NCBI GenBank assembly: GCA_039621445.1
Contig: CP154954.1
Coordinates: 23,510,954 to 23,574,953, forward strand
DNA from: Euglena gracilis
Lineage: Eukaryota
Length of the DNA stretch: 64,000 bases
Direction: 5' to 3'
Positions 1-64,000 of this stretch are shown piece after piece. The position numbers and the translations under genes were made by a program. The notes beneath the pieces were generated by a model. That model worked only from the letters and a program-made list of their open reading frames with translations, did no database searches and was not told the origin of the DNA. Positions within the stretch are counted from its first letter, which is position 1; every line of letters begins with the position of its first letter.

Positions 1-1
1 G

Positions 2-242
2 CAGGGTTTTTTTTTTTAAAGACTGGGGGTCCACTCCCTGGGGGACCCACCAACTTTCCCCCCAAAATGGCCAAAAAAAAACGCGGAAAATGCTAAAAAA
101 TAGCACCTTTTTCAAAAATTCTCGGCTCCTTCGCCGAAAAGTGTATCCCCCCCCGGGGACCCCCCCGGGGAGGGGGTGGCTCGGCTGGACCAACCCGCCC
201 CACCCCTCCCTCCCCCTGTCCAAGACTAAAAAAAAACCCCTG
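2..242. mobile_element. MITE with CAGGG-T-run terminal inverted repeats
   Basis: CAGGGTTTTTTT... / ...AAGACTAAAAAAAAACCCCTG. A related copy lies at 33664-33779. Confidence 0.6.
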
Positions 243-390
243 GGCGGGAGGGCTGCTGCTGTCCGAGGAGGAGAGGGGCTGGACGGGCGGGGGCGGCGTG
301 GAGGGGCGCAGCGGCGCGCGGGCGGGGGCGAGGACGGGCGCGAGGATCGGGGCGGGGGCGGGGGCGAGGGCCTGGCCGAGCAGGCGCGCC
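243..390 (-). CDS. Possible Pro/Ala-rich exon
   Basis: ARLLGQALAPAPAPILAPVLAPARAPLRPSTPPPPVQPLSSSDSSSPPA, directly abutting the MITE at 2-242. Confidence 0.3.
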
Positions 391-1305
391 CAGTCGGGAC
401 CAGGGGGCGGCCCAGACCCTCGAGGTCGGGGCAGGGCAGTGGGCGGGCTCCAAACCGTGACACCCTGCGGGACTGGGGAAGGCCATGCTGGTTGCCCACG
501 CTGAGCCCCTTGGCAACCACCAAATGGCACGGCACACATGAAATCAAAATGCCTTCGACGATGGAATATTTTCACCCGTGTTCATCCAATCATGGCACAT
601 TTTGGCCGCCTCTGGGAATGAGTGGGTAAACCCCAACTAATGTGTATACCCCCAGTCCTGAAAAGGAGCTGGACAGCAGACAGATACATCTTGAAATGAA
701 AAGGAAAGAGCCCAATAGCTGACAGTTTTGATGCAGCTCGAAAGCTGCTTCTTGGCTCCTTGACTGACCCGATGCATCAATTGAAAACACACCTCTGGGT
801 CGACTCCTTTGAGGCATACAAAAAAAAAACGTCGACTCCAGATTTCAAAATCCTCTTCTACGAAAATACTATCTGCGCCATGTGGGGGTGTGGTGACCCA
901 CAAGACTGAAAATGTGAGATGCATTTTCTTGACTCTTTTGCCCAAGACGGAAAACTCATGGATGACTAAATTCACTAATGTCGCAGGCATTAATGTTTGT
1001 GTGAGAATAAAATCGAACCACCAACCAAACCACAAGAACACCTAAAAATCCAAGAACCTGTTTAGGGGATTTGAGTAAGAGACCACCTGCCAGCAAAGAA
1101 ACGCAAGATTTTGACATGAGGTGGTCCGCATTGACGGGGAGGGGATCGAATGTTAGACTGGGGCCGCCCTCTGCCTGGCTGGCGGGGCGGTGGGGATGGC
1201 AGACAGATCGGCCACCCCACCGGGGACAGACCGGCGGCGGCGTCCATCAGGGGCGGTGGAAATGTGAACTGGTGGCAGGGCAGCGTGGGGGACCCGCTTC
1301 ACAAC

Positions 1306-2909: not shown

Positions 2910-3402
2910 CACAATCAATTACTGGCAGAAACCAAAACATGCCAATGATCACAAAAAAAAAGAACACATTTCTGAAAACATGGTTCGAAAATGCAAATAT
3001 TTTTTCAAGTCAAAGCAACTCCGGTGCATTTCCCAACAGAACTCAGAAAACATAAAATACATACAACTGTCCTTGTCCTCCAATCAATGGGAAAATGGGC
3101 AAACTTCTCCAAAGATTTCCACAAAGAACACAAAGACGGTTGCCACATCCGATAGAAGGGCAAACAAGGGGAGGTTTGGAAAGCTGGAGACACCACCGAC
3201 CATGCCGGCGCCCCCACCGTCCTGTGCGGCCGGGATGGCGGTGGGGATGCGTTCCAGGAGGGACGTCAGGCCGGATGGCGGGGGGCCGGGATTCTGTTGT
3301 CGATCTTTTGGAGGGGATGGACCAACAATTGCAGCATGACACGCAGGAAAGAACCACGGCGCAGATTTTTTGCAAGTTTGGCTAGTTCCACCCCCCCCCC
3401 CC

Positions 3403-3801
3403 CAGGGTTCGATATAAGGACAGGTGGGGGGGGGGTGGTCCGGACCCCCCCCTGTGGGCCAGGAGGGGGGGGGGGTGGGGGGGACCCCCCCCACCTAAAC
3501 AGGTGCGCGGTCAGGGTGGCCGAAAATTTTTGACCCCCCAAAACGACCAAAAGTGCCATTTTGGGCACTTTTTGGGCAAAAATGTGCCAAAAATGCAAAA
3601 AATTTTCGGCGCAAAGCGCCGGAGGAAAAAAGTGACCCTTTTTGGGGGGGTCCCGGGAACCCCCCCGAGGGTCGGTCCGGACCCCCCTGGCAGGTGGGGG
3701 GGGGGGTGGGTCCGGAAACCCCCTGCGGCCAGGAGGGGGGGGGGGCTATGGGGGACACCCCCCCACCTAAACCATGTACGCCCTCCTTATATCAAACCCT
3801 G
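3403..3801. mobile_element. MITE with 18-bp TIR CAGGGTTCGATATAAGGA
   Basis: TIR pair CAGGGTTCGATATAAGGA / TCCTTATATCAAACCCTG within poly-C flanks. Homologous copies at ~46657-47060 and 51511-51875. Confidence 0.75.
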
Positions 3802-7849: not shown

Positions 7850-10800
7850 TGGGGGTAAGAGCGAAGCTTACCACCGGGGGGAAAACGCCCCCCCCCCCCC
7901 CCCTCCCCCCCCTCGGGGCCACCTCGGGAACCGGCGGATTATCGCCGTGATCCCGGCCCGGTTCCGGATTTTTTTTTTCAGTCGCGAGCGACTGGATTTC
8001 AGGTTTCCGAATCACCTGGGTTTGACCCCCAACTCCACGCCAGGCCCGAGTTATTCACGCGCGAAGGGGTCCAAACTGGGTAGGATTGCCCCCCCCCCCT
8101 GGATAAGCCCCCCCCCCTTTGGACTCTGCCATTTCGGCCAAAAAATGTCAATTTTCAAAATTTCTCCCAAATGAAGCAAAATGAAAGGAATTGTCCGGAG
8201 ACCTAATTTGAAACCCTTGGAACGCCCCATCTACTGGTATTTTGATTTCCCCACAACTCCCCGCCACGCCCGAGATACGGCCGTTTTCGGCCAACGGGGC
8301 CTTTTTGTACACTTTTTCCATTGTCCGACTGGCCGTTTTCGGCCAAAATTCGGCCAAAAAATCAATATTTTCAAAATTTCTCAAAAATGAAGCAAAATCA
8401 AAGGAAATGTCCGGAGACCTAATTTGAAGCCCTTGGAACGCTCCATCTAACGGCATTTTGATTTCCCCGCAACGGTTCGCGTAGCCCGAGATACGGCCGT
8501 TTTTCGGCCGATTTTGTACATTTTGTACACTTTTTCCACTGGTGGACTTAGCCGTTTTTTGGCTAATAAAATGGAGAAATATCGAAATATTTTTTTGCCC
8601 AAAACCATGCTTTTTGGCCTCCCGGACCAGGAAAAAGTGTTTCCGAGCCGAAAATGGGCCCGGCCCATCATGACCCATGATGGCCATGATGCACATCATG
8701 ACCCATGATGCGCATCATGACCCATGATGGCCATCATGACGCATGATGCCCATCATGACCCATGATGCGCATCATGACCGATGATGCCCATCATGACCCA
8801 TGATGGCCATTATGACCCATGATGCCCATCATGACCCATGATGGCCATCATGGGTCATGATGGCCATCATAACCCATGATGCGCATCATGACCCATGATG
8901 GCCATCATGATCAAGCACCTCTGGTCAGTCATGCCCTTGGGCCCAGCATCGCCCAGCATCGCCCAGCATCGCCCAGCATCGCTCAGCATCGCCCAGCATC
9001 GCCCAGCATCGCCCAGCATCGCCTTTGGAGCCCTTGAAGGTGTACCTATAATGCCTGCTGCTTTTGCCGCTCTAGCCCACTTTTGGCTACTTTTGGCCAC
9101 CTTTGGTTGCTTTTTGACCACTTTGACCACTTTTGACTGCTTTTTGCCCACTTTGACCACTTTTGACTGCTTTTTGACCACTTTTGCCCACATTTGCTGC
9201 CTTTTGACCAATTTTGACTGCTTCTTGACCACTTTTGCTGCTTTTTGCCCACTTTTGCCCATTTCCAACCACCTTTGCAGCTTTTTGATCACTTTTGCTG
9301 CTTTTTGACCACTTTTGGCCCCTTTTGCCTGCTTTTTGACCACTTTTGACAACTTTTGTTGCTTTTCGACCACTTTTGCTCACTGTTTGCCCACTTTTGG
9401 CCATTGTTGCTGCTTTTTGATCACTTTCACTTTTTTTGCCCACTTTTGCCCACTTTTTTACCACTTTTGCTGCTTTCTGACCACTTTACCCCACTTTTCC
9501 CTGCTTTTTGACCACTTTTTGACCACTTTTGCTGCTTTTTGCCGGCACAGGATGTGGTGCAGAGGTTAAACCAGCAACAACCAAGGAAAGATGCAGCAAA
9601 GTGTGGCCGTATCCAACCAGTCGATTGCGTTGTCCAATATGTTGAGCTCCAAGGCTGGGCTTTTGCAGGGAGTGGCTTCGGCTGCGTCTCAATCTTGTCC
9701 AGTATCTGCATCTGTTGCATCCTGCATCCACTGCCTTGTCCAGCATCTGCATGTTGTCCAGTGTCTGCATGTTGTCCAGCATCTGCATCTTGCGCAGTAT
9801 CTGCATCTTGTCCAGCATCTGCACGTTGTCCAGCATCTGCGCGTTGTCCAGCATCTGCTTCTTGTCCAGCAACTGCATCTTGTCCACCATCTGCATGTTG
9901 TCCAGTGTCTGCATCCAGTTCATCTTGTCCAGCATCGGCTTCTTGTCCAGCATCTGCATCTTGTCCAGTTCCTGCATCCAGTTCATCTTGTCCAGCATCT
10001 GCATCTTGTCCAGTATCTGTCCAGTATTCATCCGTTGGCTCCTGACCAAGCCAAAATAACCACAAAAGCCCCAAAAAAGGCCACAAAAAGCCCAAAATTG
10101 ACCACAAAAAGCCCAAAAAGCAACCAAAATAACCAAAAATTGCCCAAAAATGCCAACAAAGTCCACAAAAGATTGCGAAAAATGACCCAAAATCACCAAA
10201 AAGACGCAAAATGGCCAAAATGCCATAAAATCTGCTCAAAAAGGCCCCAATTAGCCCAATATTGGCCAAATCAGTGATAAATAGCCCCCAAATTAGCAAA
10301 AAATTGACCCATAATGGCCAAAATGGGTGTAAAACTGGAGCTTTGTGGGAAAATTATCCCAAAAATGGTTCAATTCTCCAAAATATACAAAAAAAATGCC
10401 AGCATCGCCCAGCATCGCCCAGCATCGCCCTGCATCGCCCAGCATCGCCCAGCATCGGAACCCCACCTCTGGTCTCCAAAAATCCAGCATCGCCCAGCAT
10501 CGCCCTGCATCGCCCAGCATCGCCCAGCATCATCAGAGGTGCTTGATCATGATGCATGATGCCCATCTTGACCCATGATGCCCATCATGACGCATGATGC
10601 CCATCATGACCCATGATGCCGATGCCCATCATGACTCACGATGCACATCATGACCCATGCATGATGTGCATCGGGTCGGAAAAATTTGAAAATTTTTGTT
10701 TGGCCCAAATGCTGTTTTTTGGCCTCCCCGACCCAGAAAAATTGTTTTTGGGCTGAAAATGAGCGTTTTTCGACCCGCCAGCGCCCTGTTTTGGGCCGCC

Positions 10801-12575: not shown

Positions 12576-13750
<1,175 letters not shown>

Positions 13751-13755
<5 letters not shown>

Positions 13756-14650
13756 TCCCTATCGGCAACGTCTTCATCGCGGAGAAGCAGAATCCGAAAG
13801 AGAGGCGCGCAAGCGTGTTTCCGCCACTGAGCGGAACATTTACAATTTCGCCGGGCGAGGCCCACCCCCCGCCGTGCCGCTGGAAGGCAGTCAGTCCGCA
13901 TAGAGGCTAGGTTGCCCACAAGGGTAGAGTAGCCCACCGACGGTGGGCGGCCGTGTGAGAGTTAGCCTGTGCGGAGAGCAGGAGAGCGGAGGCGAAGGGT
14001 GGACTAGAGTAGCCGGACGCATGGAGGCGGACGAAGGAGGCCCCGGTCGTGGACTAGAGTAGCCGAAGCCCTTTCCAGGGGAGGCGAAGGAGGCGCAAGA
14101 CGAGAGCCCGGCGGTCGGCGCAGCCGTGGACTAGAGTAGCTGACCCGGCAGTGGGTGAGGCGAAGAGGCTGCGCGGTCGGGGACTAGAGTAGCCGAGCCC
14201 CACCGGGGGAGCGAAGGAGCCCACCCACAATGCCGACAGTGGAGTTCCCACGGGGTAGGCGCGGTGGGTCCCCCATGGCCCGTCCCCTACGCCCCAAGCC
14301 GCTCGGATGCCGCGCTGCCCGCGTGAAGGGGTGGGACGCTGAAACCCACCTTAACAAAACAGCACCCCCTCCCGGACAATGCGATGCATGCCGGCTGAGG
14401 ATAAGACCTCCGCTGACTGGTGCTGTCCCGGGCGTCGAGGCTGGACGCTGACCCAACAACAGCGCACCTGAGAAGAGCAGGGGAAGAGAAGGCTCAAGAC
14501 GGGGCCCAAGCAAGACGACCCAAGAAGGGAGTCTGGGGAAAAGGCCGTGAGGTCCCCACTGAGGAGCCCCAACCCCACCGTGCCGGGCGAAACTCCCTCG
14601 GCAACGTCTTCATCGCGGAGTACGATGAAAGCAAAGAATCCGAGTTCGAA
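13751..14650 (+). mobile_element. Retrozyme-like element B (~838-nt unit with terminal direct repeat, one complete HHR)
   Basis: Begins at GAAACTCCCT..CGGCAACGTCTTCATCGCGGAG (13751), which is the 3' strand of the HHR. The same sequence recurs at 14589. Flanked by (GA)n. Confidence 0.8.
14526..14598 (+). ncRNA. Type III hammerhead ribozyme B
   Basis: AGGGAGUC, predicted cut after C14533. Stem I UGGGGA/UCCCCA. Core CUGAGGA 14559-65. Stem II GCCC/GGGC. GAAA 14589-92. ACUCCCU pairs with AGGGAGU (7-bp stem III, extendable by AAGACG/CGUCUU). Loops I and II are partly complementary. Confidence 0.9.
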
Positions 14651-14703
14651 GAGAGAGAGATAGCGAGAGAGAGTGTGGGACGTAGAGAGAGAAAGTGAGA
14701 GAG

Positions 14704-14750
<47 letters not shown>

Positions 14751-14755
<5 letters not shown>

Positions 14756-17700
14756 GGCCCACCCCCAGGCAGCCCGGGCCGAAACCACCGAAGTCCCAAG
14801 TGGAAGAAGAGAGAGCTACACGGGAAACCGTGGTCACCCCACAACGGGTGAGGAGGAGCCGGAGCTCGCCCGTTTTTCTCAGAACGGGTCTGTCTCCCCT
14901 GCTTTTTTCAGAGCAGGTCGGCCCCCACGGCTCGTGCCCCGCGGCAGAAGCAAGGTTCAAGCTCACCGACGCGGCATTCAAGACAGCTGTGGTCTGGAGA
15001 GAAGGGCGCTGGGGGACTCCACTGATGAGGCCCACCCCCAGGCAGCCCGGGCCGAAACCACCGAAGTCCCAAGTGGAAGAAGAGAGAGCTACACGGGAAA
15101 CCGTGGTCACCCCACAACGGGTGAGGAGGAGCCGGAGCTCGCCCGTTTTTCTCAGAACGGGTCTGTCTCCCCTGCTTTTTTCAGAGCAGGTCGGCCCCCA
15201 CGGCTCGTGCCCCGCGGCAGAAGCAAGGTCAAGCTCACCGACGCGGCATTCAAGACAGCTGTGGTCTGGAGAGAAGGGCGCTGGGGGACTCCACTGATGA
15301 GGCCCACCCCCAGGCAGCCCGGGCCGAAACCACCGAAGTCCCAAGTGGAAGAAGAGAGAGCTACACGGGAAACCGTGGTCACCCCACAACGGGTGAGGAG
15401 GAGCCGGAGCTCGCCCGTTTTTCTCAGAACGGGTCTGTCTCCCCTGCTTTTTTCAGAGCAGGTCGGCCCCCACGGCTCGTGCCCCGCGGCAGAAGCAAGG
15501 TCAAGCTCACCGACGCGGCATTCAAGACAGCTGTGGTCTGGAGAGAAGGGCGCTGGGGGACTCCACTGATGAGGCCCACCCCCAGGCAGCCCGGGCCGAA
15601 ACCACCGAAGTCCCAAGTGGAAGAAGAGAGAGCTACACGGGAAACCGTGGTCACCCCACAACGGGTGAGGAGGAGCCGGAGCTCGCCCGTTTTTCTCAGA
15701 ACGGGTCTGTCTCCCCTGCTTTTTTCAGAGCAGGTCGGCCTCCACGACACGTCCCCCACGGCAGAAGCAAGATTCAAGCTCACCGACGCGGCATTCAAGA
15801 CAGCTGTGGTCTGGAGAGAAGGGCGCTGGGGGACTCCACTGATGAGGCCCACCCCCAGGCAGCCCGGGCCGAAACCACCGAAGTCCCAAGTGGAAGAAGA
15901 GAGAGCTACACGGGAAACCGTGGTCACCCCACAACGGGTGAGGAGGAGCCGGAGCTCGCCCGTTTTTCTCAGAACGGGTTGTCTCCCCTGCTTTTTTCAG
16001 AGCAGGTCGGCCCCCACGGCTCGTGCCCCGCGGCAGAAGCAAGGTTCAAGCTCACCGCGCGGCATTCAACACAGCTGTGCTCTGGAGAGAAGGGCTCTGG
16101 GGGACTCCACTGATGAGGCCCACCCCCAGCCAGCCGGGCCGAAACCACCGAAGTCCCAAGTGGAAGAAGAGAGAGCTACACGGGAAACCGTGGTCACCCC
16201 ACAACGGGTGAGGAGGAGCCGGAGCTCGCCCGTTTTTCTCAGAACGGGTTGTCTCCCCTGCTTTTTTCAGAGCAGGTCGGCCCCCACGGCTCGTGCCCCG
16301 GCGGCATAAGCAAGGTTCAAGCTCACCGACGCGGCATTCAAGACAGCTGTGGTCTGGAGAGAAGGGCGCTGGGGGACTCCACTGATGAGGCCCACCCCCA
16401 GGCAGCCCGGGCCGAAACCACCGAAGTCCCAAGTGGAAGAAGAGAGAGCTACACGGGAAACCGTGGTCACCCCACAACGGGTGAGGAGGAGCCGGAGCTC
16501 TCCCGTCTTTCTCAGAACGGGTTTCTCCCCCGTGCTTATTTCAGAGCAGGTCGGCCCCCACGGCTCGTGCCCGCGGCAGAAGCAAGGTCAAGCTCACCGA
16601 CGCGGCATTCAAGACAGCTGTGGTCTGGAGAGAAGGGCGCTGGGGGACTCCACTGATGAGGCCCACCCCCAGGCAGCCCGGGCCGAAACCACCGAAGTCC
16701 CAAGTGGAAGAAGAGAGAGCTACACGGGAAACCGTGGTCACCCCACAACGGGTGAGGAGGAGCCGGAGCTCGCCCGTTTTTCTCAGAACGGGTTAGTCTC
16801 CCCTGCTTTTTTCAGAGCAGGTCGGCCCCCACGGCTCGTGCCCAGCGGCAGAAGCAAGGTTCAAGCTCACCGACGCGGCATTCAAGACAGCTGTGGTCTG
16901 GAGAGAAGGGCGCTGGGGGACTCCACTGATGAGGCCCACCCCCAGGCAGCCCGGGCCGAAACCACCGAAGTCCCAAGTGGAAGAAGAGAGAGCTACACGG
17001 GAAACCGTGGTCACCCCACAACGGGTGAGGAGGAGCCGGAGCTCGCCCGTTTTTCTCAGAACGGGTTTCTCCCCTGCTTTTTTCAGAGCAGGTCGGCCCC
17101 CACGGCTCGTGCCCGGCGGCAGAAGCAAGGTTCAAGCTCACCGACGCGGCATTCAAGACAGCTGTGGTCTGGAGAGAAGGGCGCTGGGGGACTCCACTGA
17201 TGAGGCCCACCCCCAGGCAGCCCGGGCCGAAACCACCGAAGTCCCAAGTGGAAGAAGAGAGAGCTACACGGGAAACCGTGGTCACCCCACAACGGGTGAG
17301 GAGGAGCCGGAGCTCGCCCGTTTTTCTCAGAACGGGTTGTCTCCCCTGCTTTTTTCAGAGCAGGTCGGCCCCCACGGCTCGTGCCCGGCGGCAGAAGCAA
17401 GGTTCAAGCTCACCGACGCGGCATTCAAGACAGCTGTGGTCTGGAGAGAAGGGCGCTGGGGGACTCCACTGATGAGGCCCACCCCCAGGCAGCCCGGGCC
17501 GAAACCACCGAAGTCCCAAGTGGAAGAAGAGAGAGCTACACGGGAAACCGTGGTCACCCCACAACGGGTGAGGAGGAGCCGGAGCTCGCCCGTTTTTCTC
17601 AGAACGGGTTAGTCTCCCCTGCTTTTTTCAGAGCAGGTCGGCCCCCACGGCTCGTGCCCGGCGGCAGAAGCAAGGTTCAAGCTCACCGACGCGGCATTCA

Positions 17701-20700
17701 AGACAGCTGTGGTCTGGAGAGAAGGGCGCTGGGGGACTCCACTGATGAGGCCCACCCCCAGGCAGCCCGGGCCGAAACCACCGAAGTCCCAAGTGGAAGA
17801 AGAGAGAGCTACACGGGAAACCGTGGTCACCCCACAACGGGTGAGGAGGAGCCGGAGCTCGCCCGTTTTTCTCAGAACGGGTTAGTCTCCCCTGCTTTTT
17901 TCAGAGCAGGTCGGCCCCCACGGCTCGTGCCCGGCGGCAGAAGCAAGGTTCAAGCTCACCGACGCGGCATTCAAGACAGCTGTGGTCTGGAGAGAAGGGC
18001 GCTGGGGGACTCCACTGATGAGGCCCACCCCCAGGCAGCCCGGGCCGAAACCACCGAAGTCCCAAGTGGAAGAAGAGAGAGCTACACGGGAAACCGTGGT
18101 CACCCCACAACGGGTGAGGAGGAGCCGGAGCTCGCCCGTTTTTCTCAGAACGGGTTGTCTCCCCTGCTTTTTTCAGAGCAGGTCGGCCCCCACGGCTCGT
18201 GCCCCGCGGCAGAAGCAAGGTCAAGCTCACCGACGCGGCATTCAAGACAGCTGTGGTCTGGAGAGAAGGGCGCTGGGGGACTCCACTGATGAGGCCCACC
18301 CCCAGGCAGCCCGGGCCGAAACCACCGAAGTCCCAAGTGGAAGAAGAGAGAGAGCTACACGGGAAACCGTGGTCACCCCACAACGGGTGAGGAGGAGCCG
18401 GAGCTCGCCCGTTTTTCTCAGAACGGGTCTGTCTCCCCTGCTTTTTTCAGAGCAGGTCGGCCCCCACGGCTCGTGCCCGCGGCAGAAGCAAGGTCAAGCT
18501 CACCGACGCGGCATTCAAGACAGCTGTGGTCTGGAGAGAAGGGCGCTGGGGGACTCCACTGATGAGGCCCACCCCCAGGCAGCCCGGGCCGAAACCACCG
18601 AAGTCCCAAGTGGAAGAAGAGAGAGCTACACGGGAAACCGTGGTCACCCCACAACGGGTGAGGAGGAGCCGGAGCTCGCCCGTTTTTCTCAGAACGGGTT
18701 TGCCTCCCCTGCTTTTTTCAGAGCAGGTCGGCCCCCACGGCTCGTGCCCGGCGGCAGAAGCAAGGTTCAAGCTCACCGACGCGGCATTCAAGACAGCTGT
18801 GGTCTGGAGAGAAGGGCGCTGGGGGACTCCACTGATGAGGCCCACCCCCAGGCAGCCCGGGCCGAAACCACCGAAGTCCCAAGTGGAAGAAGAGAGAGCT
18901 ACACGGGAAACCGTGGTCACCCCACAACGGGTGAGGAGGAGCCGGAGCTCGCCCGTTTTTCTCAGAACGGGTCTGTCTCCCCTGCTTTTTTCAGAGCAGG
19001 TCGGCCCCCACGGCGCGTGGCCGGCGGCAGAAGCAAGGTTCAAGCTCACCGCGCGGCATTCAAGACAGCTGTGGTCTGGAGAGAAGGGCGCTGGGGGACT
19101 CCACTGATGAGGCCCACCCCCAGGCAGCCCGGGCCGAAACCACCGAAGTCCCAAGTGGAAGAAGAGAGAGCTACACGGGAAACCGTGGTCACCCCACAAC
19201 GGGTGAGGAGGAGCCGGAGCTCGCCCGTTTTTCTCAGAACGGGTCTGTCTCCCCTGCTTTTTTCAGAGCAGGTCGGCCCCCACGGCTCGTCCCCGGCGGC
19301 AGAAGCAAGGTTCAAGCTCACCGACGCGGCATTCAAGACAGCTGTGGTCTGGAGAGAAGGGCGCTGGGGGACTCCACTGATGAGGCCCACCCCCAGGCAG
19401 CCCGGGCCGAAACCACCGAAGTCCCAAGTGGAAGAAGAGAGAGCTACACGGGAAACCGTGGTCACCCCACAACGGGTGAGGAGGAGCCGGAGCTCGCCCG
19501 TTTTTCTCAGAACGGGTTAGTCTCCCCTGCTTTTTTCAGAGCAGGTCGGCCCCCACGGCTCGTGCCCGGCGGCAGAAGCAAGGTCAAGCTCACCGACGCG
19601 GCATTCAAGACAGCTGTGGTCTGGAGAGAAGGGCGCTGGGGGACTCCACTGATGAGGCCCACCCCCAGGCAGCCCGGGCCGAAACCACCGAAGTCCCAAG
19701 TGGAAGAAGAGAGAGCTACACGGGAAACCGTGGTCACCCCACAACGGGTGAGGAGGAGCCGGAGCTCGCCCGTTTTTCTCAAACAAGCGTTGTCTCCCCT
19801 GCTTTTTTCCGATCAGGTCGGCCCCCACGGCTCGTGCCCGCGGCAGAAGCAAGGTTCAAGCTCACCGACACGGCATTCAAGACAGCTGTGGTCTGGAGAG
19901 AAGGGCGCTGGGGGACTCCACTGATGAGGCCCACCCCCAGGCAGCCCGGGCCGAAACCACCGAAGTCCCAAGTGGAAGAAGAGAGAGCTACACGGGAAAC
20001 CGTGGTCACCCCACAACGGGTGAGGAGGAGCCGGAGCTCGCCCGTTTTTCTCAGAACGGGTCTGTCTCCCCTGCTTTTTTCAGAGCAGGTCGGCCCCCAC
20101 GGCTCGTGCCCCGCGGCAGAAGCAAGGTCAAGCTCACCGACGCGGCATTCAAGACAGCTGTGGTCTGGAGAGAAGGGCGCTGGGGGACTCCACTGATGAG
20201 GCCCACCCCCAGGCAGCCCGGGCCGAAACCACCGAAGTCCCAAGTGGAAGAAGAGAGAGCTACACGGGAAACCGTGGTCACCCCACAACGGGTGAGGAGG
20301 AGCCGGAGCTCGCCCGTTTTTTTCAGAACGGGTCTGTCTCCACTGATTTTTTCAGAGCAGGTCGTACCCCACGGCTCGTGCCCGCGGCAGAAGCAAGGTC
20401 AAGCTCACCGACGCGGCATTCAAGACAGCTGTGGTCTGGAGAGAAGGGCGCTGGGGGACTCCACTGATGAGGCCCACCCCCAGGCAGCCCGGGCCGAAAC
20501 CACCGAAGTCCCAAGTGGAAGAAGAGAGAGAGCTACACGGGAAACCGTGGTCACCCCACAACGGGTGAGGAGGAGCCGGAGCTCGCCCGTTTTTCTCAGA
20601 ACGGGTCTGTCTCCCCTGCTTTTTTCAGAGCAGGTCGGCCCCCACGGCTCGTGCCCCGCGGCAGAAGCAAGGTCAAGCTCACCGACGCGGCATTCAAGAC

Positions 20701-23700
20701 AGCTGTGGTCTGGAGAGAAGGGCGCTGGGGGACTCCACTGATGAGGCCCACCCCCAGGCAGCCCGGGCCGAAACCACCGAAGTCCCAAGTGGAAGAAGAG
20801 AGAGCTACACGGGAAACCGTGGTCACCCCACAACGGGTGAGGAGGAGCCGGAGCTCGCCCGTTTTTCTCAGAACGGGTCTGTCTCCCCTGCTTTTTTCAG
20901 AGCAGGTCGGCCCCCACGGCTCGTGCCCCGCGGCAGAAGCAAGGTCAAGCTCACCGACGCGGCATTCAAGACAGCTGTGGTCTGGAGAGAAGGGCGCTGG
21001 GGGACTCCACTGATGAGGCCCACCCCCAGGCAGCCCGGGCCGAAACCACCGAAGTCCCAAGTGGAAGAAGAGAGAGCTACACGGGAAACCGTGGTCACCC
21101 CACAACGGGTGAGGAGGAGCCGGAGCTCGCCCGTTTTTCTCAGAACGGGTCTGTCTCCCCTGCTTTTTTCAGAGCAGGTCGGCCCCCACGGCTCGTGCCA
21201 ACCGGCAGAAGCAAGGTCAAGCTCACCGACGCGGCATTCAAGACAGCTGTGGTCTGGAGAGAAGGGCGCTGGGGGACTCCACTGATGAGGCCCACCCCCA
21301 GGCAGCCCGGGCCGAAACCACCGAAGTCCCAAGTGGAAGAAGAGAGAGCTACACGGGAAACCGTGGTCACCCCACAACGGGTGAGGAGGAGCCGGAGCTC
21401 GCCCGTTTTTCTCAGAACGGGTCTGTCTCCCCTGCTTTTTTCAGAGCAGGTCGGCCCCCACGGCTCGTGCCCCGCGGCAGAAGCAAGGTCAAGCTCACCG
21501 ACGCGGCATTCAAGACAGCTGTGGTCTGGAGAGAAGGGCGCTGGGGGACTCCACTGATGAGGCCCACCCCCAGGCAGCCCGGGCCGAAACCACCGAAGTC
21601 CCAAGTGGAAGAAGAGAGAGCTACACGGGAAACCGTGGTCACCCCACAACGGGTGAGGAGGAGCCGGAGCTCGCCCGTTTTTCTCAGAACGGGTCTGTCT
21701 CCCCTGCTTTTTTCAGAGCAGGTCGGCCCCCACGGCTCGTGCCCCGCGGCAGAAGCAAGGTCAAGCTCACCGACGCGGCATTCAAGACAGCTGTGGTCTG
21801 GAGAGAAGGGCGCTGGGGGACTCCACTGATGAGGCCCACCCCCAGGCAGCCCGGGCCGAAACCACCGAAGTCCCAAGTGGAAGAAGAGAGAGCTACACGG
21901 GAAACCGTGGTCACCCCACAACGGGTGAGGAGGAGCCGGAGCTCGCCCGTTTTTCTCAGAACGGGTCTGTCTCCCCTGCTTTTTTCAGAGCAGGTCGGCC
22001 CCCACGGCTCGTGCCCCGCGGCAGAAGCAAGGTCAAGCTCACCGACGCGGCATTCAAGACAGCTGTGGTCTGGAGAGAAGGGCGCTGGGGGACTCCACTG
22101 ATGAGGCCCACCCCCAGGCAGCCCGGGCCGAAACCACCGAAGTCCCAAGTGGAAGAAGAGAGAGCTACACGGGAAACCGTGGTCACCCCACAACGGGTGA
22201 GGAGGAGCCGGAGCTCGCCCGTTTTTCTCAGAACGGGTCTGTCTCCCCTGCTTTTTTCAGAGCAGGTCGGCCCCCACGGCTCGTGCCCGGCGGCAGAAGC
22301 AAGGTTCAAGCTCACCGACGCGGCATTCAAGACAGCTGTGGTCTGGAGAGAAGGGCGCTGGGGGACTCCACTGATGAGGCCCACCCCCAGGCAGCCCGGG
22401 CCGAAACCACCGAAGTCCCAAGTGGAAGAAGAGAGAGCTACACGGGAAACCGTGGTCACCCCACAACGGGTGAGGAGGAGCCGGAGCTCGCCCGTTTTTC
22501 TCAGAACGGGTCTGTCTCCCCTGCTTTTTTCAGAGCAGGTCGGCCCCCACGGCTCGTGCCCGGCGGAAGAAGCAAGGTTCAAGCTCACCGACGCGGCATT
22601 CAAGACAGCTGTGGTCTGGAGAGAAGGGCGCTGGGGGACTCCACTGATGAGGCCCACCCCCAGGCAGCCCGGGCCGAAACCACCGAAGTCCCAAGTGGAA
22701 GAAGAGAGAGCTACACGGGAAACCGTGGTCACCCCACAACGGGTGAGGAGGAGCCGGAGCTCGCCCGTTTTTCTCAGAACGGGTCTGTCTCCCCTGCTTT
22801 TTTCAGAGCAGTTCGCCCCCACGGCTCGTGCCCGGCGGCAGAAGCAAGATTCAAGCTCACCGACGCGGCATTCAAGACAGCTGTGGTCTGGAGAGAAGGG
22901 CGCTGGGGGACTCCACTGATGAGGCCCACCCCCAGGCAGCCCGGGCCGAAACCACCGAAGTCCCAAGTGGAAGAAGAGAGAGCTACACGGGAAACCGTGG
23001 TCACCCCACAACGGGTGAGGAGGAGCCGGAGCTCGCCCGTTTTTCTCAGAACGGGTTTGTCTCCCCTGCTTTTTTCAGAGCAGGTCGGCCCCCACGGCTC
23101 GTGCCCGGCGGCAGAAGCAAGGTTCAAGCTCACCGACGCGGCATTCAAGACAGCTGTGGTCTGGAGAGAAGGGCGCTGGGGGACTCCACTGATGAGGCCC
23201 ACCCCCAGGCAGCCCGGGCCGAAACCACCGAAGTCCCAAGTGGAAGAAGAGAGAGCTACACGGGAAACCGTGGTCACCCCACAACGGGTGAGGAGGAGCC
23301 GGAGCTCGCCCGTTTTTCTCAGAACGGGCTGGCTCCCCTGCTTTTTTCAGAGCAGGTCGGCCCCCACGGCTCGTGCCCGGCGGCAGAAGCAAGGTTCAAG
23401 CTCACCGACGCGGCATTCAAGACAGCTGTGGTCTGGAGAGAAGGGCGCTGGGGGACTCCACTGATGAGGCCCACCCCCAGGCAGCCCGGGCCGAAACCAC
23501 CGAAGTCCCAAGTGGAAGAAGAGAGAGCTACACGGGAAACCGTGGTCACCCCACAACGGGTGAGGAGGAGCCGGAGCTCGCCCGTTTTTCTCAGAACGGG
23601 TTTGCCTCCCCTGCTTTTTTCAGAGCAGGTCGGCCCCCACGGCTCGTGCCCGGCGGCAGAAGCAAGGTTCAAGCTCACCGACGCGGCATTCAAGACAGCT

Positions 23701-25663
23701 GTGGTCTGGAGAGAAGGGCGCTGGGGGACTCCACTGATGAGGCCCACCCCCAGGCAGCCCGGGCCGAAACCACCGAAGTCCCAAGTGGAAGAAGAGAGAG
23801 CTACACGGGAAACCGTGGTCACCCCACAACGGGTGAGGAGGAGCCGGAGCTCGCCCGTTTTTCTCAGAACGGGTCTGTCTCCCCTGCTTTTTTCAGAGCA
23901 GGTCGGCCCCCACGGCTCGTGCCCGGCGGCAGAAGCAAGGTTCAAGCTCACCGACGCGGCATTCAAGACAGCTGTGGTCTGGAGAGAAGGGCGCTGGGGG
24001 ACTCCACTGATGAGGCCCACCCCCAGGCAGCCCGGGCCGAAACCACCGAAGTCCCAAGTGGAAGAAGAGAGAGCTACACGGGAAACCGTGGTCACCCCAC
24101 AACGGGTGAGGAGGAGCCGGAGCTCGCCCGTTTTTCTCAGAACGGGTCTGTCTCCCCTGCTTTTTTCAGAGCAGGTCGGCCCCCACGGCTCGTGCCCGGC
24201 GGCAGAAGCAAGGTTCAAGCTCACCGACGCGGCATTCAAGACAGCTGTGGTCTGGAGAGAAGGGCACTGGGGGACTCCACTGATGAGGCCCACCCCCAGG
24301 CAGCCCGGGCCGAAACCACCGAAGTCGGGAGTGGGAGAAGAGAGAGCTACACGGGAAACCGTGGTCACCCCACAACGGGTGAGGAGGAGCCGGAGCTCGC
24401 CCGTTTTTCTCAGAACGGGTCTGTCTCCCCTGCTTTTTTCAGAGCAGGTCGGCCCCCACGGCTCGTGCCCGGCGGCAGAAGCAAGGTTCAAGCTCACCGA
24501 CGCGGCATTCAAGACAGCTGTGGTCTGGAGAGAAGGGCACTGGGGGACTCCACTGATGAGGCCCACCCCCAGGCAGCCCGGGCCGAAACCACCGAAGTCC
24601 CAAGTGGAAGAAGAGAGAGCTACACGGGAAACCGTGGTCACCCCACAACGGGTGAGGAGGAGCCGGAGCTCGCCCGTTTTTCTCAGAACGGGTCTGTCTC
24701 CCCTGCTTTTTTCAGAGCAGGTCGGCCCCCACGGCTCGTGCCCGGCGGCAGAAGCAAGGTTCAAGCTCACCGACGCGGCATTCAAGACAGCTGTGGTCTG
24801 GAGAGAAGGGCGCTGGGGGACTCCACTGATGAGGCCCACCCCCAGGCAGCCCGGGCCGAACCCACCGAAGTCCCAAGTGGAAGAAGAGAGAGCTACACGG
24901 GAAACCGTGGTCACCCCACAACGGGTGAGGAGGAGCCGGAGCTCGCCCGTTTTTCTCAGAACGGGTCTGTCTCCCCTGCTTTTTTCAGAGCAGGTCGGCC
25001 CCCACGGCTCGTGCCCGGCAGAAGCAAGGTTCAAGCTCACCGACGCGGCATTCAAGACAGCTGTGGTCTGGAGAGAAGGGCGCTGGGGGACTCCACTGAT
25101 GAGGCCCACCCCCAGGCAGCCCGGGCCGAAACCACCGAAGTCCCAAGTGGAAGAAGAGAGAGAGAGAGGAAACCGTGGTGAAGGAGGAGCCGCTCGCCCG
25201 TTTTTCAGAACGGGTTGCTTTTTTCAGAGCAGGTCGGCCCCCACGGCTCGTGCCCGCGGCAGAAGAAGAAGCAAGAAGTCGCGGCTCAGACGCTGTGGTC
25301 TGGAGAGAGAGGCGCTGGGGACTCCACTGATGAGGCCCACCCCCAGGCAGCCCGGGCCGAAACCACCGAAGTCCCAAGTGGAAGAAGAGAGAGCTACACG
25401 GGAAACCGTGGTCACCCCACAACGGGTGAGGAGGAGCCGGAGCTCGCCCGTTTTTCTCAGAACGGGTTGTCCCTGCTTTTTTCAGAGCAGGTCGGCCCCC
25501 ACGGCTCGTGCCCCCGCAGAAGCAAGGTCAAGCTCACCGACGCGGCATTCAAGACAGCTGTGGTCTGGAGAGAAGGGCGCTGGGGGACTCCACTGATGAG
25601 GCCCACCCCCAGGCAGCCCGGGCCGAAACCACCGAAGTCCCAAGTGGAAGAAGAAGAGAGCTA
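14751..25663 (+). mobile_element. Tandem array of hammerhead-ribozyme repeats (retrozyme-like satellite): 40 full periods plus a terminal partial
   Basis: The GATGAGGCCCACC core segment recurs 41 times (14751, 15024, 15296 ... 25595), mostly at 272-273 bp spacing, with one short degenerate unit near 25100-25330. Every unit has GTGGTC-TGGAG-loop-CTCCA-CTGATGA-GGCCC-loop-GGGCC-GAAA-CCAC. Both ends merge into (GA)n. Confidence 0.93.
14989..15061 (+). ncRNA. Type III hammerhead ribozyme C (first complete copy; repeated in each array unit)
   Basis: Stem III GUGGU(14989-93)/ACCAC(15057-61). GUC cleavage triplet, predicted cut after C14994. Stem I UGGAG/CUCCA. Core CUGAUGA 15022-28. Stem II GGCCC/GGGCC. 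GAAA 15054-57. Loop I GGGC..CUGGGGG is complementary to loop II CCCCCAG..GCCC. Confidence 0.93.
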
Positions 25664-25715
25664 GAAGGGAGAAGAGAGTGAGAGAGAGAGAGAGAGGAGA
25701 GAGGAGAGAGAGAGA

Positions 25716-28631
<2,916 letters not shown>

Positions 28632-29942
28632 GAGTTGAGTTGAGTTCAAAGTCACGTTCGTATTCATGGAATACGCTGGCCGCAGGTGGTATCATATGCA
28701 TGATATCCACGACCGTGACCGGGCCATGTACCCTCAGCCCCCCCTATTATTAGGTGTTATTTTGCGAGTGATGCGGCCAGCGCTCGGGCGGGCGGGCAGG
28801 CGGGCGGGCGGGCTGGGGCAATGGGCAGGGATGGGGATCCCACAGCCGCCGGTCCAACAAAAACAAAAGTAAAAAACAAAAAAACAGCAATAATAATATT
28901 TATAGATAGAGATGGAGATTATAGTCAGAGGAGTAGATCAGAAAAAGAAGAGGAAAGTAAGTGGCTTTCATCGTCGGTGGTTACTAGCAGGTTCCCTATT
29001 CAGCTCCCTATTCATAGATCCATCAGTTCCCTATTCAGCTCTTTTTGCCGTCCCTTGAAACGGAAGCGGGAGTCCTGAGTGTCATAAGAGAGACAAGATG
29101 GAGTCCCTTACTGTAAATGCTCAAGAAACTGCCAATTGCAAAAAAGAATCCTTTTTGACCAAAGAATTGCCCCACCCATTTGCCCCTGATTTGGCACCCA
29201 AAAATCCATAACCGTCTTGCCTAGGATTCGACGTAAGGGCAAGTGGCGGGACCCCCAACCTAAAATGGCGTGGTCCAGGTGACCAATTTGCGGCTCAGCA
29301 AAGCGCTGGGACGAAAAAACACCGTGGTGGGGGGTTTGGTCTAGAAGAGGTGCCAGTAGTTGTGGGGAAAACCAGCAGACCCAGGCCTATGGCCTGCCTA
29401 TGGCCTGGGGGCTATTGGCGACGAGGCGCCCTGAGAGCAAGACTGACAGTGCTCCCAATGGGGGAGAGTCTCCCGGCAGCCGTAAATGAACTCCAGGCAG
29501 ACGGGGCGTCCCGGTACACCGTGGGTAGTGTCAGGGGGGGGAGCTCTGGAGATCTGGCTGACGGCTGCAACCGAGGAGATGGTGAGCTGCAGGATGCGGG
29601 AGAGGTTGCGCCGGGCTGACAGATAGTGGGGGAAAGGCTGTACAAGGAGCACTGCCACTTCAATAAGGCAGCCGGGCACTCCACTCCACTTGATGTGGTA
29701 GTCACAGGGGCAGGGTGGCTCTAAATAGGAGGGAACAACTATCCCCTGTGATTATGAACCTCTCTCACTCCGTTCAAAACCAGCACAAGCCCACAGGTTG
29801 GCTCGAAAAAAAATCCGTAAACAATGGCTGATGATGGAGGATGAGAGGAAAAGGGAGAGAAGAAATTGTGGAGATGGGTCAAGAAAAATACCAAGACGGG
29901 AGTGCGATGCGTTGGAGAGAGCAGACCAGACCAGGGCCCCTG

Positions 29943-36264: not shown

Positions 36265-36384
36265 TGGCGGGGGTGAACTTGTGCCCCCCCCCTAACCTTA
36301 ACCCTAACCCTAACCCTGACCCAAATCTAGGGGAGCAAGTTCTCCCTCGATTCCAAATCTAGGGGAGCAAGTTCTCCCTCGCCA
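36265..36384. mobile_element. Short TGGC...GCCA MITE with CCCTAA repeats
   Basis: TGGCGGGGGTGAACTT / AAGTTCTCCCTCGCCA, flanked by TA repeats. Internal CCTAACCTTAACCCTAACCCTAACCCT. Confidence 0.6.
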
Positions 36385-51050: not shown

Positions 51051-51510
51051 TATTCCAAAAAACTCCAAGAAACTCCTCTTTTCTCTGCCCCCCCCCTTCC
51101 AGGGGACAAAAGCTCAATCCAAGCAAGGGCTATGACAGCCTTTCAAATCAATGGCTATGGAATCCAGGAGGGGATTACGGCCAAGGCGGCCCAAGACACA
51201 GATGTCAAGATTGGGGAAGGAGCTGGAAGAGCCAAATGCCGAACTCTTCAGCAGTGGGAACCCCACCGGTCAAACAGACCCACCCATCCCCCCCTCCATA
51301 AATCCCTTCAGGGACAGTGGGAGCAAGAAATGGCATCAACCCTTCAACGCAAGGCCCTGGGGGGCATCATGTCAAGGGCCAAGGCTATGGCAGCCTGCAG
51401 CATCAGAGCCTGGACAGAGGCAGTCAATATCATTAAACTGGCAGCAGCCCAGGACAACAGGTCGAACAGATCCACCAACTCCCCCTTTCACTTACCCCTT
51501 CACCCCCCTG

Positions 51511-63800: not shown

Positions 63801-64000
63801 TGGAATGCCCATCCAGAAATTTGACAGCAGGCCAAAAAAAAAACTGACAGAAAACACCGTTTCAGTCATTATGACCAGCTGCCAACATGGGGGGTGTCAA
63901 AGTTTTCGGCAGCAAGCCTTACCCCGGGGGGGGGGGGGCGGCGGAGGGGTTCGCGGGGGCGGGGGGGGGCAAAGTTTTCGGCAGCCAGCCTTACCCCGGG
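57900..64000. repeat. Degenerate ~60-bp satellite with higher-order repeats
   Basis: GAGGGCGAGGGG.TAAAATTTGCGGCAGCAAGCCTGGTCCTGGGGAGC recurs many times. Larger blocks repeat at ~58050, 60370, 61020 and 61900, and with a ~420-bp period at 62880-63840. Confidence 0.75.

What the first reader, a model, noticed from the sequence alone, without database searches (positions are those of the whole stretch)
14751..25663. 10.9-kb satellite of 40 tandem type III hammerhead ribozyme units (retrozyme array)
Seen: each 272-273-bp unit holds a complete hammerhead (GUC site, three stems, CUGAUGA and GAAA). The core stays conserved while variation clusters elsewhere in the unit. Established: tandem HHR repeats such as newt satellite 2, schistosome Sm-alpha and non-LTR retrozymes self-cleave multimeric transcripts into monomers that can circularise. 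Those animal repeats use type I HHRs, whereas type III is typical of plant LTR retrozymes and viroid-like RNAs. Inference: this is a tandem non-LTR retrozyme with a type III ribozyme in a probable protist, yielding a ~272-nt monomer that starts UGGAGAGAAGGG. I do not know this combination as described.
Basis: partly seen in the sequence, partly recalled or inferred. Interest (0 to 1): 0.95.

Follow-up and report, generated by a model that had tools for sequence, protein, structure and literature searches.

The report
Tandem satellite of type III hammerheads
A 10.9-kb block of about 40 head-to-tail copies of a 272-base unit, each carrying a complete self-cutting hammerhead RNA motif, sits in gene-free DNA of an unidentified eukaryote and turns up in RNA libraries from soil, litter, roots and wastewater; it resembles known ribozyme-bearing repeats but combines their features in an unusual way.

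Summary
TRF finds one array at 14751-25670 (period 273, 40.3 copies, 97% matches). A descriptor scan finds a complete type III hammerhead with 5-bp stems I, II and III in 38 of 40 units and nowhere else in the window. None of 200,000 shuffled units reached that quality.

Rfam's Hammerhead_3 model stays below its gathering score (24.1 vs 48.5 bits). It does align all three stems and the core. The 17- and 15-nt loops cost the score.

The hammerhead part varies less than the rest of the unit, both within the array (p 0.0009) and in contigs of four RNA libraries (p 0.006). Those contigs carry head-to-tail joints.

Loops 1 and 2 are complementary over 12 bp. This could be a stabilising pseudoknot or a blocking fold.

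I found no LTRs, reverse transcriptase or recognisable gene in the window. The organism is unidentified. Self-cleavage, circularisation and mobility remain inferred.

Verdict: a real hammerhead satellite, retrozyme-like, and a new variant of a known kind. Interest is moderate, not 0.95.

The parts
14650..14752 (.). Imperfect (AG)n microsatellite that abuts the left end of the array. The array starts inside the CUGAUGA box (…AGAGAG|ATGAGGCCC).
   Evidence: TRF row 14650-14752, period 2; sequence read
14751..25670 (+). Tandem array of 40.3 copies of a 272-273-bp unit, 63% G+C and T-poor (T 0.147). It has 40 CUGAUGA boxes and 38 complete hammerheads.
14989..15061 (+). First complete type III hammerhead, taken as the reference copy. 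It comprises stem III 5' strand, GUC, stem I with a 17-nt loop, CUGAUGA, stem II with a 15-nt loop, GAAA and stem III 3' strand. An interrupted extension of stem III reaches about 14982-15069.
14994..14995 (+). Predicted self-cleavage site (GUC|U). It recurs every 272-273 nt up to 25565/25566.
   Evidence: position relative to the core; cleavage itself not tested
15004..15015 (+). G-rich part of loop 1 (GGGCGCUGGGGG), complementary to loop 2.
   Evidence: MFE fold; loop-loop duplex -22.8 kcal/mol
15035..15048 (+). C-rich part of loop 2 (CCCCCAGGCAGCCC), partner of loop 1. It shares no nucleotide with stems I or II, so it could form a pseudoknot or a blocking helix.
14995..15266 (+). One predicted monomer RNA of 272 nt, from cut site to cut site. 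The non-ribozyme part (about 15062-15257) folds into several short hairpins.
   Evidence: z about -2 against shuffles
16080..16080 (+). G16.2>C in stem III of one unit; the hammerhead is weakened.
24861..24861 (+). A15.1>C (GAAA to GAAC) in one unit; the hammerhead is probably dead.
25069..25565 (+). Two degenerate terminal units of 231 and 266 nt, with 69 and 15 differences from the consensus. Their hammerheads are still complete.
25655..25736 (.). AG-rich microsatellite that abuts the right end. The array stops just after the unit's own AG-rich tract (GGAAGAAGAGAGAGC).
   Evidence: TRF rows; sequence read

Best explanation
This is a genome-encoded satellite whose plus-strand transcript carries one canonical type III hammerhead ribozyme per 272-273-nt unit.

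Shown: the array, the complete motif in 38 of 40 units, lower variation in the ribozyme part, and the presence of the unit with head-to-tail joints in RNA libraries.

Inferred: a long read-through transcript folds each hammerhead as it is made. Hairpins I and II form first, probably clamped by a Watson-Crick loop 1-loop 2 pseudoknot (UGGGGG:CCCCCA and beyond). Stem III then closes. The RNA cuts itself after C14994 and at every equivalent C, releasing 272-273-nt monomers with 5'-OH UGGAGAGAAGGG... and ...GUGGUC 2',3'-cyclic phosphate ends.

Inferred: the monomer then refolds into a more stable state in which the full loop 1-loop 2 helix and a 3' hairpin replace the hammerhead. This blocked ribozyme state resembles what is described for retrozyme and viroid RNAs, and it would protect a ligated circle from re-cutting.

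Less certain, about 0.4: the monomers are circularised by a host RNA ligase and copied back into DNA by a reverse transcriptase supplied in trans. In that case the array is a retrozyme rather than a plain satellite. The array lies inside an (AG)n microsatellite, with its 3' end at the unit's own AG-rich tract. That placement would fit target-primed reverse transcription of a circular or multimeric template.
For: - Array confirmed.
- Full core and 5/5/5-bp stems in 38 of 40 units, 0 elsewhere in 64 kb on both strands.
- 0 of 200,000 shuffled units reach this quality, and 14 reach a relaxed version.
- Hammerhead_3 aligns core and all three stems at E 0.0017 when 101 nt are searched.
- Hammerhead columns vary less than the rest of the unit: 5 of 76 vs 46 of 197, p 0.0009.
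- All 4 RNA libraries laid, each from a different study (wastewater, leaf litter, soil, root), hold contigs at least 95% alike. They show 0 differing sites in 14975-15092 against 10 in 15093-15262 (p 0.006).
- Each of those libraries has a contig that joins the unit's end back to its start. One 305-nt contig equals a 275-nt period plus 30.
- The loop 1 and loop 2 nucleotides are disjoint from the stems.
- Perreault et al. 2011 (PMC3088659, passages) report that about 40% of hammerheads use such a loop I-loop II pseudoknot, and that it is needed for fast cleavage.
- Penelope-like elements show a microsatellite insertion bias (PMC8557442, passages).
Against: - No unit reaches Rfam's gathering score. 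The best is 24.1 bits against 48.5.
- Pseudoknot-free folding gives stems I and II a probability of about 0. The alternative fold is 13 kcal/mol more stable than the hammerhead-constrained fold, -35.1 vs -22.1. If the loop-loop helix is not compatible with the active fold, the ribozyme may be mostly off.
- No covariation is available. Every copy seen has the same stems, and the only more distant relative (L008) keeps just the 5' half, 43 of 49 nt.
- Only contigs could be laid, not raw reads. No RNA ends at the cut site were seen, all contigs cross the cut site, and RNA libraries can contain DNA.
- No reverse transcriptase, LTR, or target-site duplication distinct from the microsatellite was found, and no second locus could be examined.
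Confidence: 0.7

Rival explanations
1. Plain satellite DNA with an active hammerhead, as in newt satellite 2. Transcripts are trimmed to monomers, but there is no circular RNA or reverse-transcription cycle. The array grew by unequal crossing-over, and the AG-rich flanks are incidental.
For: - Units are homogenised in blocks and the edge units are degenerate, as expected from unequal exchange.
- AG microsatellites are common across this region, at 13694, 27878, 28496 and 30179.
- No reverse transcriptase or Penelope-like ORF in 30 ORFs tested.
- No LTRs.
Against: This rival cannot be separated from the retrozyme reading with the data in hand. The head-to-tail RNA joints fit multimers as well as circles.
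Confidence: 0.3
2. The hammerhead motif is a relic or is held inactive. The 12-bp loop 1-loop 2 helix is the real structure, and the RNA or DNA repeat works without self-cleavage.
For: - The MFE of the 93-nt domain lacks stems I and II, and the ensemble probability of these stems is about 0.
- The alternative fold is 13 kcal/mol more stable.
- The score is below the Rfam threshold.
- The partial relative L008 keeps the G-rich and C-rich complementarity but has no stem II, GAAA or stem III.
Against: - All 13 core positions, the A15.1-U16.1 and G10.1-C11.1 pairs and three 5-bp stems are kept in 38 of 40 units and in four environmental RNA sets.
- The two helices use different nucleotides from the stems, so both can coexist as a pseudoknot. 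Such pseudoknots are common in active hammerheads (PMC3088659).
Confidence: 0.15
3. DNA copy of an autonomous or satellite circular RNA replicon. This would be a retroviroid-like integration, as recalled for carnation small viroid-like RNA. The RNA seen in the environment would then replicate RNA-to-RNA.
For: - The size of 272 nt is in the viroid/virusoid range.
- The ribozyme is type III.
- The RNA is present in RNA libraries from 4 different studies, in four kinds of habitat.
- From recall, not from a call: some virusoids carry a hammerhead in one polarity only.
Against: - There are 40 tandem DNA copies with decayed edges, embedded in unique flanks.
- DNA-labelled runs hold the unit at shares of 0.76-0.84.
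- There is no ribozyme box on the minus strand.
- The folding z-score is only about -2, so the RNA is not rod-like.
Confidence: 0.07
4. Chance motif in an ordinary repeat, or an assembly artefact that inflates the copy number.
For: - The copy number cannot be verified from short-read contigs.
- Rfam gives no hit at the gathering score.
Against: - 0 of 200,000 shuffles reach the observed motif.
- Units differ by real substitutions shared in local blocks, and the array has decayed ends.
- 20 listed run rows from 14 studies hold the unit or part of it.
Confidence: 0.04

Closest known systems
Metazoan non-LTR retrozymes and classical hammerhead satellites (newt satellite 2, Schistosoma Sm-alpha, coral, mussel and axolotl repeats; Cervera & de la Peña 2020, PMC7229834)
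   Same: Long head-to-tail arrays of a unit a few hundred bp long (150-450 bp there, 272-273 here). Every unit carries one plus-strand hammerhead. There are no LTR, PBS or PPT. The RNA is found in transcriptomes with head-to-tail joints.
   Different: Those carry type I hammerheads, often with a weak helix III that works as a dimer, and have low G+C, below 45-50% (passages). Here the ribozyme is type III with a stable interrupted stem III and long complementary loops, and G+C is 63%. No Penelope-like partner was seen here, and circular RNA is not shown.
Plant LTR retrozymes (Cervera et al. 2016, PMC4918200)
   Same: Type III hammerhead, G+C above 55%, a non-coding ramified RNA, and a predicted stable fold in which the ribozyme is blocked.
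   Different: Plant elements have two hammerheads in 300-400-bp LTRs around a 300-600-bp core, with PBS, PPT, 4-bp target-site duplications and circles of 600-1000 nt (passages). Here there are no flanking direct repeats, about 40 units, and a 272-nt monomer.
Pseudoknot-stabilised hammerheads (Perreault et al. 2011, PMC3088659)
   Same: Watson-Crick pairing between loop I and loop II in place of the classical non-canonical loop contacts.
   Different: The reported pseudoknots are 4-6 bp (passages). Here up to 12 bp with two bulges are possible. That is long enough to out-compete stems I and II in nested folding, so it may act as a switch.
Viroid-like satellite RNAs and retroviroid-like DNA copies (Avsunviroidae, sobemovirus virusoids, carnation small viroid-like RNA; the last two recalled, not from a call)
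   Same: A type III hammerhead and a unit of about 220-400 nt cut from multimers.
   Different: Those are RNA replicons. Avsunviroids carry ribozymes in both polarities. Here the unit is chromosomal DNA in 40 copies, and the minus strand has no hammerhead box.
Tandem hammerhead copies reported in Chlamydomonas reinhardtii and oomycetes (de la Peña & García-Robles 2010, cited in PMC5680766)
   Same: Tandem hammerhead repeats in microbial eukaryotes outside animals and flowering plants.
   Different: I saw only the one-sentence mention, and the 2010 paper is not held. I therefore cannot say which hammerhead type, unit size or copy number was described, or whether this family is among them.

Membership tests
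Hammerhead ribozyme, type III (Rfam RF00008) | Conserved core: C3-U4-G5-A6-N7-G8-A9, G12-A13-A14, the A15.1-U16.1 pair, and H17 that is not G | tested here: met
   CUGAUGA, GAAA and GUC are in the right order and spacing in 38 of 40 units. One unit has A15.1>C and one has G16.2>C.
Hammerhead ribozyme, type III (Rfam RF00008) | Three helices around the core, with I and II capped by loops and III open | tested here: met
   Stems of 5/5/5 bp. The cmscan alignment shows all three stems. Stem III is closed only by the remaining roughly 190 nt of the unit.
Hammerhead ribozyme, type III (Rfam RF00008) | Score at or above Rfam's gathering threshold (48.5 bits) | tested here: not met
   0 hits at gathering. 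Scores were 19.6 bits and 24.1 bits, E 0.0017. The loss comes from insertions of 14 and 9 nt in loops 1 and 2.
Hammerhead ribozyme, type III (Rfam RF00008) | Loop 1-loop 2 tertiary contact that supports activity at physiological Mg2+ | tested here: inconclusive
   Loop-loop complementarity of 12 bp, -22.8 kcal/mol. This fits the pseudoknot class of PMC3088659, but no pseudoknot-capable folding and no covariation were available.
Hammerhead ribozyme, type III (Rfam RF00008) | Site-specific self-cleavage | not testable with these tools
   Only contigs could be laid, so no read ends were visible.
Non-LTR retrozymes (metazoan) | Tandem repeats of 150-450 bp, each with a hammerhead, and no LTR, PBS or PPT | tested here: met
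Non-LTR retrozymes (metazoan) | Type I hammerhead in every unit (the definition used in 10.64898/2026.07.22.740005 and PMC7229834) | tested here: not met
   The topology here is type III.
Non-LTR retrozymes (metazoan) | Low G+C (below 45-50%) | tested here: not met
   G+C is 0.63 across the array.
Non-LTR retrozymes (metazoan) | Expressed as linear and circular unit-length RNA | tested here: inconclusive
   Contigs from 4 of 4 RNA libraries show head-to-tail joints. A circle, a multimer and contaminating DNA cannot be told apart from contigs.
Non-LTR retrozymes (metazoan) | Dispersed copies with target-site duplications, and relation to a Penelope-like element | tested here: inconclusive
   No genome is held. 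Both flanks are (AG)n, so no target-site duplication can be read. No Pfam family reached its curated score in 30 ORFs; the only listing was a sub-threshold Atrophin-1 match.
Plant LTR retrozymes | Hammerheads inside two 300-400-bp LTRs flanking a non-coding core, with PBS, PPT and a 4-bp target-site duplication | tested here: not met
   No direct repeats flank the array apart from microsatellite matches. It has about 40 short units rather than a dimer. PBS and PPT were not searched for.
Viroid-like RNA replicons (Avsunviroidae type) | RNA-only genome with hammerheads in both polarities | tested here: not met
   The unit is a chromosomal DNA array, and the minus strand has no CUGANGA box.

The most novel reading that the evidence does not exclude
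This is a third architectural class of retrozyme: a short-unit (272-nt) tandem element without LTRs that uses a monomer-active type III hammerhead. The ribozyme's long complementary loops would act as a cleave-then-lock switch. The element would live in a cosmopolitan soil and freshwater microbial eukaryote and produce an abundant small circular RNA. Such an element would bridge animal tandem retrozymes and the type III ribozymes of plant retrozymes and viroid-like RNAs.
Probability: 0.3. Interest if true: 0.75.

Novelty: new variant of a known kind. Interest (0 to 1): 0.55.

Why it matters
Reviews and a 2026 preprint still divide retrozymes in two: type I hammerheads in tandem repeats of animals, and type III hammerheads in LTR elements of plants. 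A tandem array without LTRs, with a stable type III hammerhead, from what looks like a widespread microbial eukaryote would show that this division is not strict. It would also add a possible genomic reservoir for viroid-like type III ribozyme RNAs outside plants.

The 12-bp loop-loop complementarity gives a simple, testable case of a hammerhead that may switch between an active pseudoknotted form and a locked form. If the RNA is circular, its presence in soil, litter, root and wastewater RNA libraries makes it easy to find.

If cleavage fails, the locus is only one more GC-rich satellite.

Tried and rejected
- Whole-genome census: no genome is held for this window.
- Earlier notes of this scan: none for this genome or for this sequence. 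The word search returned only hammerheads of other genomes, which do not bear on this locus.
- Organism identification: no Pfam family reached its curated score in 30 ORFs. The only listing was a sub-threshold Atrophin-1 match (15.2 vs 29.9 bits) to a low-complexity stretch. There is no tRNA, no Rfam family and no ORF with coding-like GC3. The origin stays unknown, and I did not try to decode the coded run labels.
I used single ORFs instead.
- Relatives by pattern, IMG/VR, stem II pattern: 7 phage contigs carry unrelated hammerheads that are open at stem I and share only the core and the stem II sequence.
- Relatives by pattern, IMG/VR, family-specific stem I pattern: 0 hits.
- Relatives by pattern, JGI metagenomes: 1 contig (L008) with only the 5' half of the motif (43 of 49 nt), no tandem repeat, and AT-rich unrelated sequence beside it.
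- Relatives by pattern, prokaryote genomes: 2 chance matches that are not hammerheads. This shows that a pattern hit alone is weak evidence.
- Protein-level search with a two-unit translation of the array (P0001): none of 1674 candidates passed.
- Covariation in the non-ribozyme part: of 7 substitutions seen in RNA contigs, 2 lie in loops, 3 keep a pair through G-U or A-U changes, and 2 break predicted pairs. This is not decisive.
- Parts of the unit without contig cover in single runs are not evidence of anything.
- Other RNA contigs of 1597, 922 and 218 nt share only 15068/15080-15123 with 5-8 differences and then run on unlike. I could not fetch them and did not type their loose-end letters into other tools, so this stays unexplained.
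- Literature: I found no description of this sequence or of a type III tandem array in a protist in searches. The library lacks most subscription journals and the 2010 paper, and supplements were not opened.

Full report
**What is there**

Tandem Repeats Finder reports one array at 14751-25670 with period 273, 40.3 copies, 97% matches and 1% indels.

The array is 63% G+C and T-poor, with T at 0.147. Imperfect (AG)n tracts bound it on both sides. It holds 40 CUGAUGA boxes, spaced 270-274 nt apart except in the last two decayed units, which are 231 and 266 nt.

Units differ by real substitutions that are shared in local blocks, and the last two units are strongly decayed (69 and 15 differences). 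This is the pattern of a genuine satellite, not of a collapsed or inflated assembly. The copy number itself could not be checked.

**The hammerhead**

Reading the reference copy gives these parts:

| Element | Sequence and coordinates |
|---|---|
| Stem III | GUGGU 14989-14993 with ACCAC 15057-15061, including A15.1-U16.1 |
| Cleavage site | C14994 \| U14995 |
| Stem I | UGGAG 14995-14999 with CUCCA 15017-15021, 17-nt loop |
| Core box | CUGAUGA 15022-15028 |
| Stem II | GGCCC 15029-15033 with GGGCC 15049-15053 (G10.1-C11.1), 15-nt loop |
| GAAA | 15054-15057 |

Stems I and II are loop-capped. Stem III is closed only by the other roughly 190 nt of the unit.

- A descriptor scan of the whole window, both strands, found this full arrangement with 5/5/5-bp stems in 38 of 40 units and nowhere else.
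- The two exceptions carry G16.2>C (16080) and A15.1>C (24861).
- The minus strand of the unit has no CUGANGA box at all.
- Of 200,000 dinucleotide-preserving shuffles of the unit, read as a circle on both strands, 14 had a relaxed motif (stems of 3 bp or more, G-U allowed) and none had 5/5/5. Chance is not a serious explanation.

- At gathering thresholds the window has no Rfam hit.
- An E-value scan of 1.6 kb reported only a 19.6-bit local match in a variant unit, using a spurious short stem I and no stem III.
- With only 101 nt given, Hammerhead_3 aligns the canonical unit through all three stems and the core at 24.1 bits, E 0.0017. This is still half the 48.5-bit gathering score. The alignment shows 14-nt and 9-nt insertions in loops 1 and 2.
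- Formally, the Rfam membership criterion is not met. The structural definition is met.

**Conservation**

- Within the array, using the first 37 full units, 5 of 76 hammerhead columns vary against 46 of 197 other columns (Fisher p 0.0009).
- 35 of 40 92-nt hammerhead stretches are identical.
- The variation outside the ribozyme is concentrated in a few hot spots, and long stretches of the remainder are just as invariant. Concerted evolution could explain part of this.

The run index gives independent material:

- It lists 20 rows from 14 studies that hold the unit or part of it. Six of them are recorded as RNA metatranscriptomes.
- I laid four of these six: wastewater, leaf litter, soil and root, from four studies. 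All four hold contigs at least 95% alike.
- Across them no site differs in 14975-15092, which covers the hammerhead. Ten sites differ in 15093-15262 (7 substitutions and 3 one-base insertions), and two runs also have a replaced stretch near 15228-15246 (Fisher p 0.006).
- Every one of the four has a contig that joins the end of the unit back to its start. One contig of 305 nt equals a 275-nt period plus 30, as expected from a closed cycle in an assembly graph.
- This shows head-to-tail RNA, either multimers or circles, if the libraries are free of DNA. The tool itself warns that this is not shown. I had no second call to lay a silent flank.

**The loops**

- In pseudoknot-free folding this helix wins. 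The MFE of the 93-nt domain is -35.1 kcal/mol and lacks stems I and II, while the hammerhead-constrained fold is -22.1.
- The ensemble probability of stems I and II is about 0 in every context tried.
- In longer contexts the 5' strand of stem III is also taken by an upstream hairpin.

Taken alone, this argues against an active ribozyme. However, the loop-loop helix shares no nucleotide with stems I and II, so all three can coexist as a pseudoknot. Perreault et al. 2011 (PMC3088659, passages read) report that about 40% of natural hammerheads, in all three types, use a Watson-Crick loop I-loop II pseudoknot of 4-6 bp. They also report that it is needed for fast cleavage at 0.5 mM Mg2+.

The 6-bp UGGGGG:CCCCCA segment lies one nucleotide from the top of each stem. 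By my own geometric reasoning, not a computation, this is where such a clamp would sit. The extra complementarity could then drive the cleaved monomer into a locked state. [quoted passage not shown] The 272-nt monomer folds into several short hairpins with a modest z-score of about -2, linear or circular.

**Surroundings**

- The window has no recognisable gene. No Pfam family reached its curated score in 30 ORFs; the only listing was a sub-threshold Atrophin-1 match to a low-complexity stretch.
- No ORF has coding-like GC3. There is no tRNA and no Rfam family.
- The window is full of microsatellites, minisatellites and dispersed repeats that are 70-85% alike.
- No direct repeats flank the array apart from microsatellite matches, so there are no LTRs.
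- No reverse transcriptase was found.
- No genome is held, so the number of loci is unknown.
- The organism is unidentified. The habitats of the RNA hits suggest a widespread soil or freshwater eukaryote, but that is inference.

**Relatives**

| Collection and pattern | Result |
|---|---|
| IMG/VR, core plus stem II | 7 phage contigs with unrelated hammerheads that are open at stem I |
| IMG/VR, family-specific stem I pattern | 0 hits |
| JGI metagenomes | 1 contig (L008) sharing 43 of 49 nt from GGUC to the C-run, without stem II, GAAA or stem III, and not tandem |
| Prokaryote genomes | 2 chance hits |

A protein search with a translated two-unit stretch found nothing. No covariation test of the stems was therefore possible.

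**How it most likely works**

Shown:
- The array.
- The motif.
- Its relative conservation.
- RNA-library presence with head-to-tail joints.

Inferred:
- Read-through transcription of the plus strand. Its T5 and T6 runs make RNA polymerase III unlikely; this is my reasoning.
- Co-transcriptional folding of each hammerhead with a loop-loop clamp.
- Cleavage after every GUC to give 272-273-nt monomers.
- Refolding into the locked form.
- Possibly ligation to circles.

More speculative: reverse transcription of a circular or multimeric template, primed from a nick in an (AG)n·(CT)n microsatellite on the unit's AG-rich tract (GGAAGAAGAGAGAGC). This would explain why the array's 3' end stops just past that tract and why its 5' end is truncated inside the core box. 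Penelope-like elements, now proposed as the partners of animal retrozymes, do show a microsatellite insertion bias (PMC8557442 passages; preprint 10.64898/2026.07.22.740005 passages). AG tracts are common in this region anyway, and unequal crossing-over explains the array equally well.

**Comparison with the known**

The locus works like the hammerhead satellites and non-LTR retrozymes of animals. It fails two of their stated features, type I ribozyme and low G+C (passages). It shares the ribozyme type and the G+C content with plant LTR retrozymes but not their architecture.

PMC5680766 (one sentence) says that putative retrozyme sequences with tandem hammerhead copies were detected in Chlamydomonas reinhardtii and oomycetes. 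It cites a 2010 paper that the library does not hold, and I could not see which type these are.

My searches found no description of this sequence or of a type III short-unit array in a protist. They cover open-access texts only, and supplements were not opened.

**Verdict**

I rate it a new variant of a known kind.

| Claim | Confidence |
|---|---|
| Self-cleaving hammerhead satellite | 0.7 |
| True circRNA-mediated retrozyme | about 0.3-0.4 |

Interest is 0.55. A ribozyme or transposon specialist would find it noteworthy and easy to test, but hammerheads of all types are already known to be widespread.

Noticed in passing
window 15068-15123 (and equivalent places in every unit): In the leaf-litter and soil RNA libraries, three other contigs (1597, 922 and 218 nt; depth 6-33) share only this 44-56-nt stretch with 5-8 differences and then continue with unrelated sequence. 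The same loose-end letters appear in two studies. A longer, conserved RNA seems to share a module with the unit.
   Followed up: no
window 22828-25596 and every 273-nt unit, for example 23707-23979: In 273-nt units, two of the three plus-strand frames have no stop codon, and one starts at the AUG inside the CUGAUGA box. A 273-nt circle would therefore carry an endless ORF. In 272-nt units the same AUG frame should close at the next box after 90 codons (hand count, not verified by a call). With T at 0.147 this can arise by composition alone. A protein search with a two-unit translation found no relative.
   Followed up: partly
L008 (Ga0073936_10212179) 1-400, minus strand: A metagenome contig carries a half hammerhead (GGUC, stem I, a similar G-rich loop, CUGAUGAG, a C-run) at 43 of 49 nt identity to the unit. 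It lacks the 3' half. It is joined to about 950 nt of AT-rich, unrelated-looking sequence, so the contig may be chimeric.
   Followed up: partly
window 25700-28700: The stretch right of the array is extremely T-poor on the plus strand (AT skew 0.675, G+C 0.67 in 26001-28000). It contains a 78-nt tandem repeat (27678-27856) and long (AG)n tracts (27878-28002, 28496-28629). The whole 12-30 kb region has A in excess of T.
   Followed up: no
window 36283-36322: A short interstitial run of CCCTAA (TTAGGG-type) repeats of about 5.5 copies lies between AT-rich microsatellites, next to a perfect 32-nt duplication at 36321-36381.
   Followed up: no
window 7853-8654 vs 49884-50651; 3395-3734 vs 51503-51878; 58373-60340; 62793-63929: Dispersed and tandem non-coding repeat families, 65-83% alike, fill much of the window, including 64-66-nt minisatellites and a 161-nt repeat at 50594-51062. 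None matched a Pfam family or an Rfam family.
   Followed up: partly
L001-L007 (IMG/VR contigs): Seven phage contigs carry intergenic hammerheads that are open at stem I, with the same GGCC(C)...(G)GGCC stem II and GUC|UGG cut site, placed just after a stop codon and before the next gene. They are ordinary phage hammerheads, unrelated to the array.
   Followed up: partly
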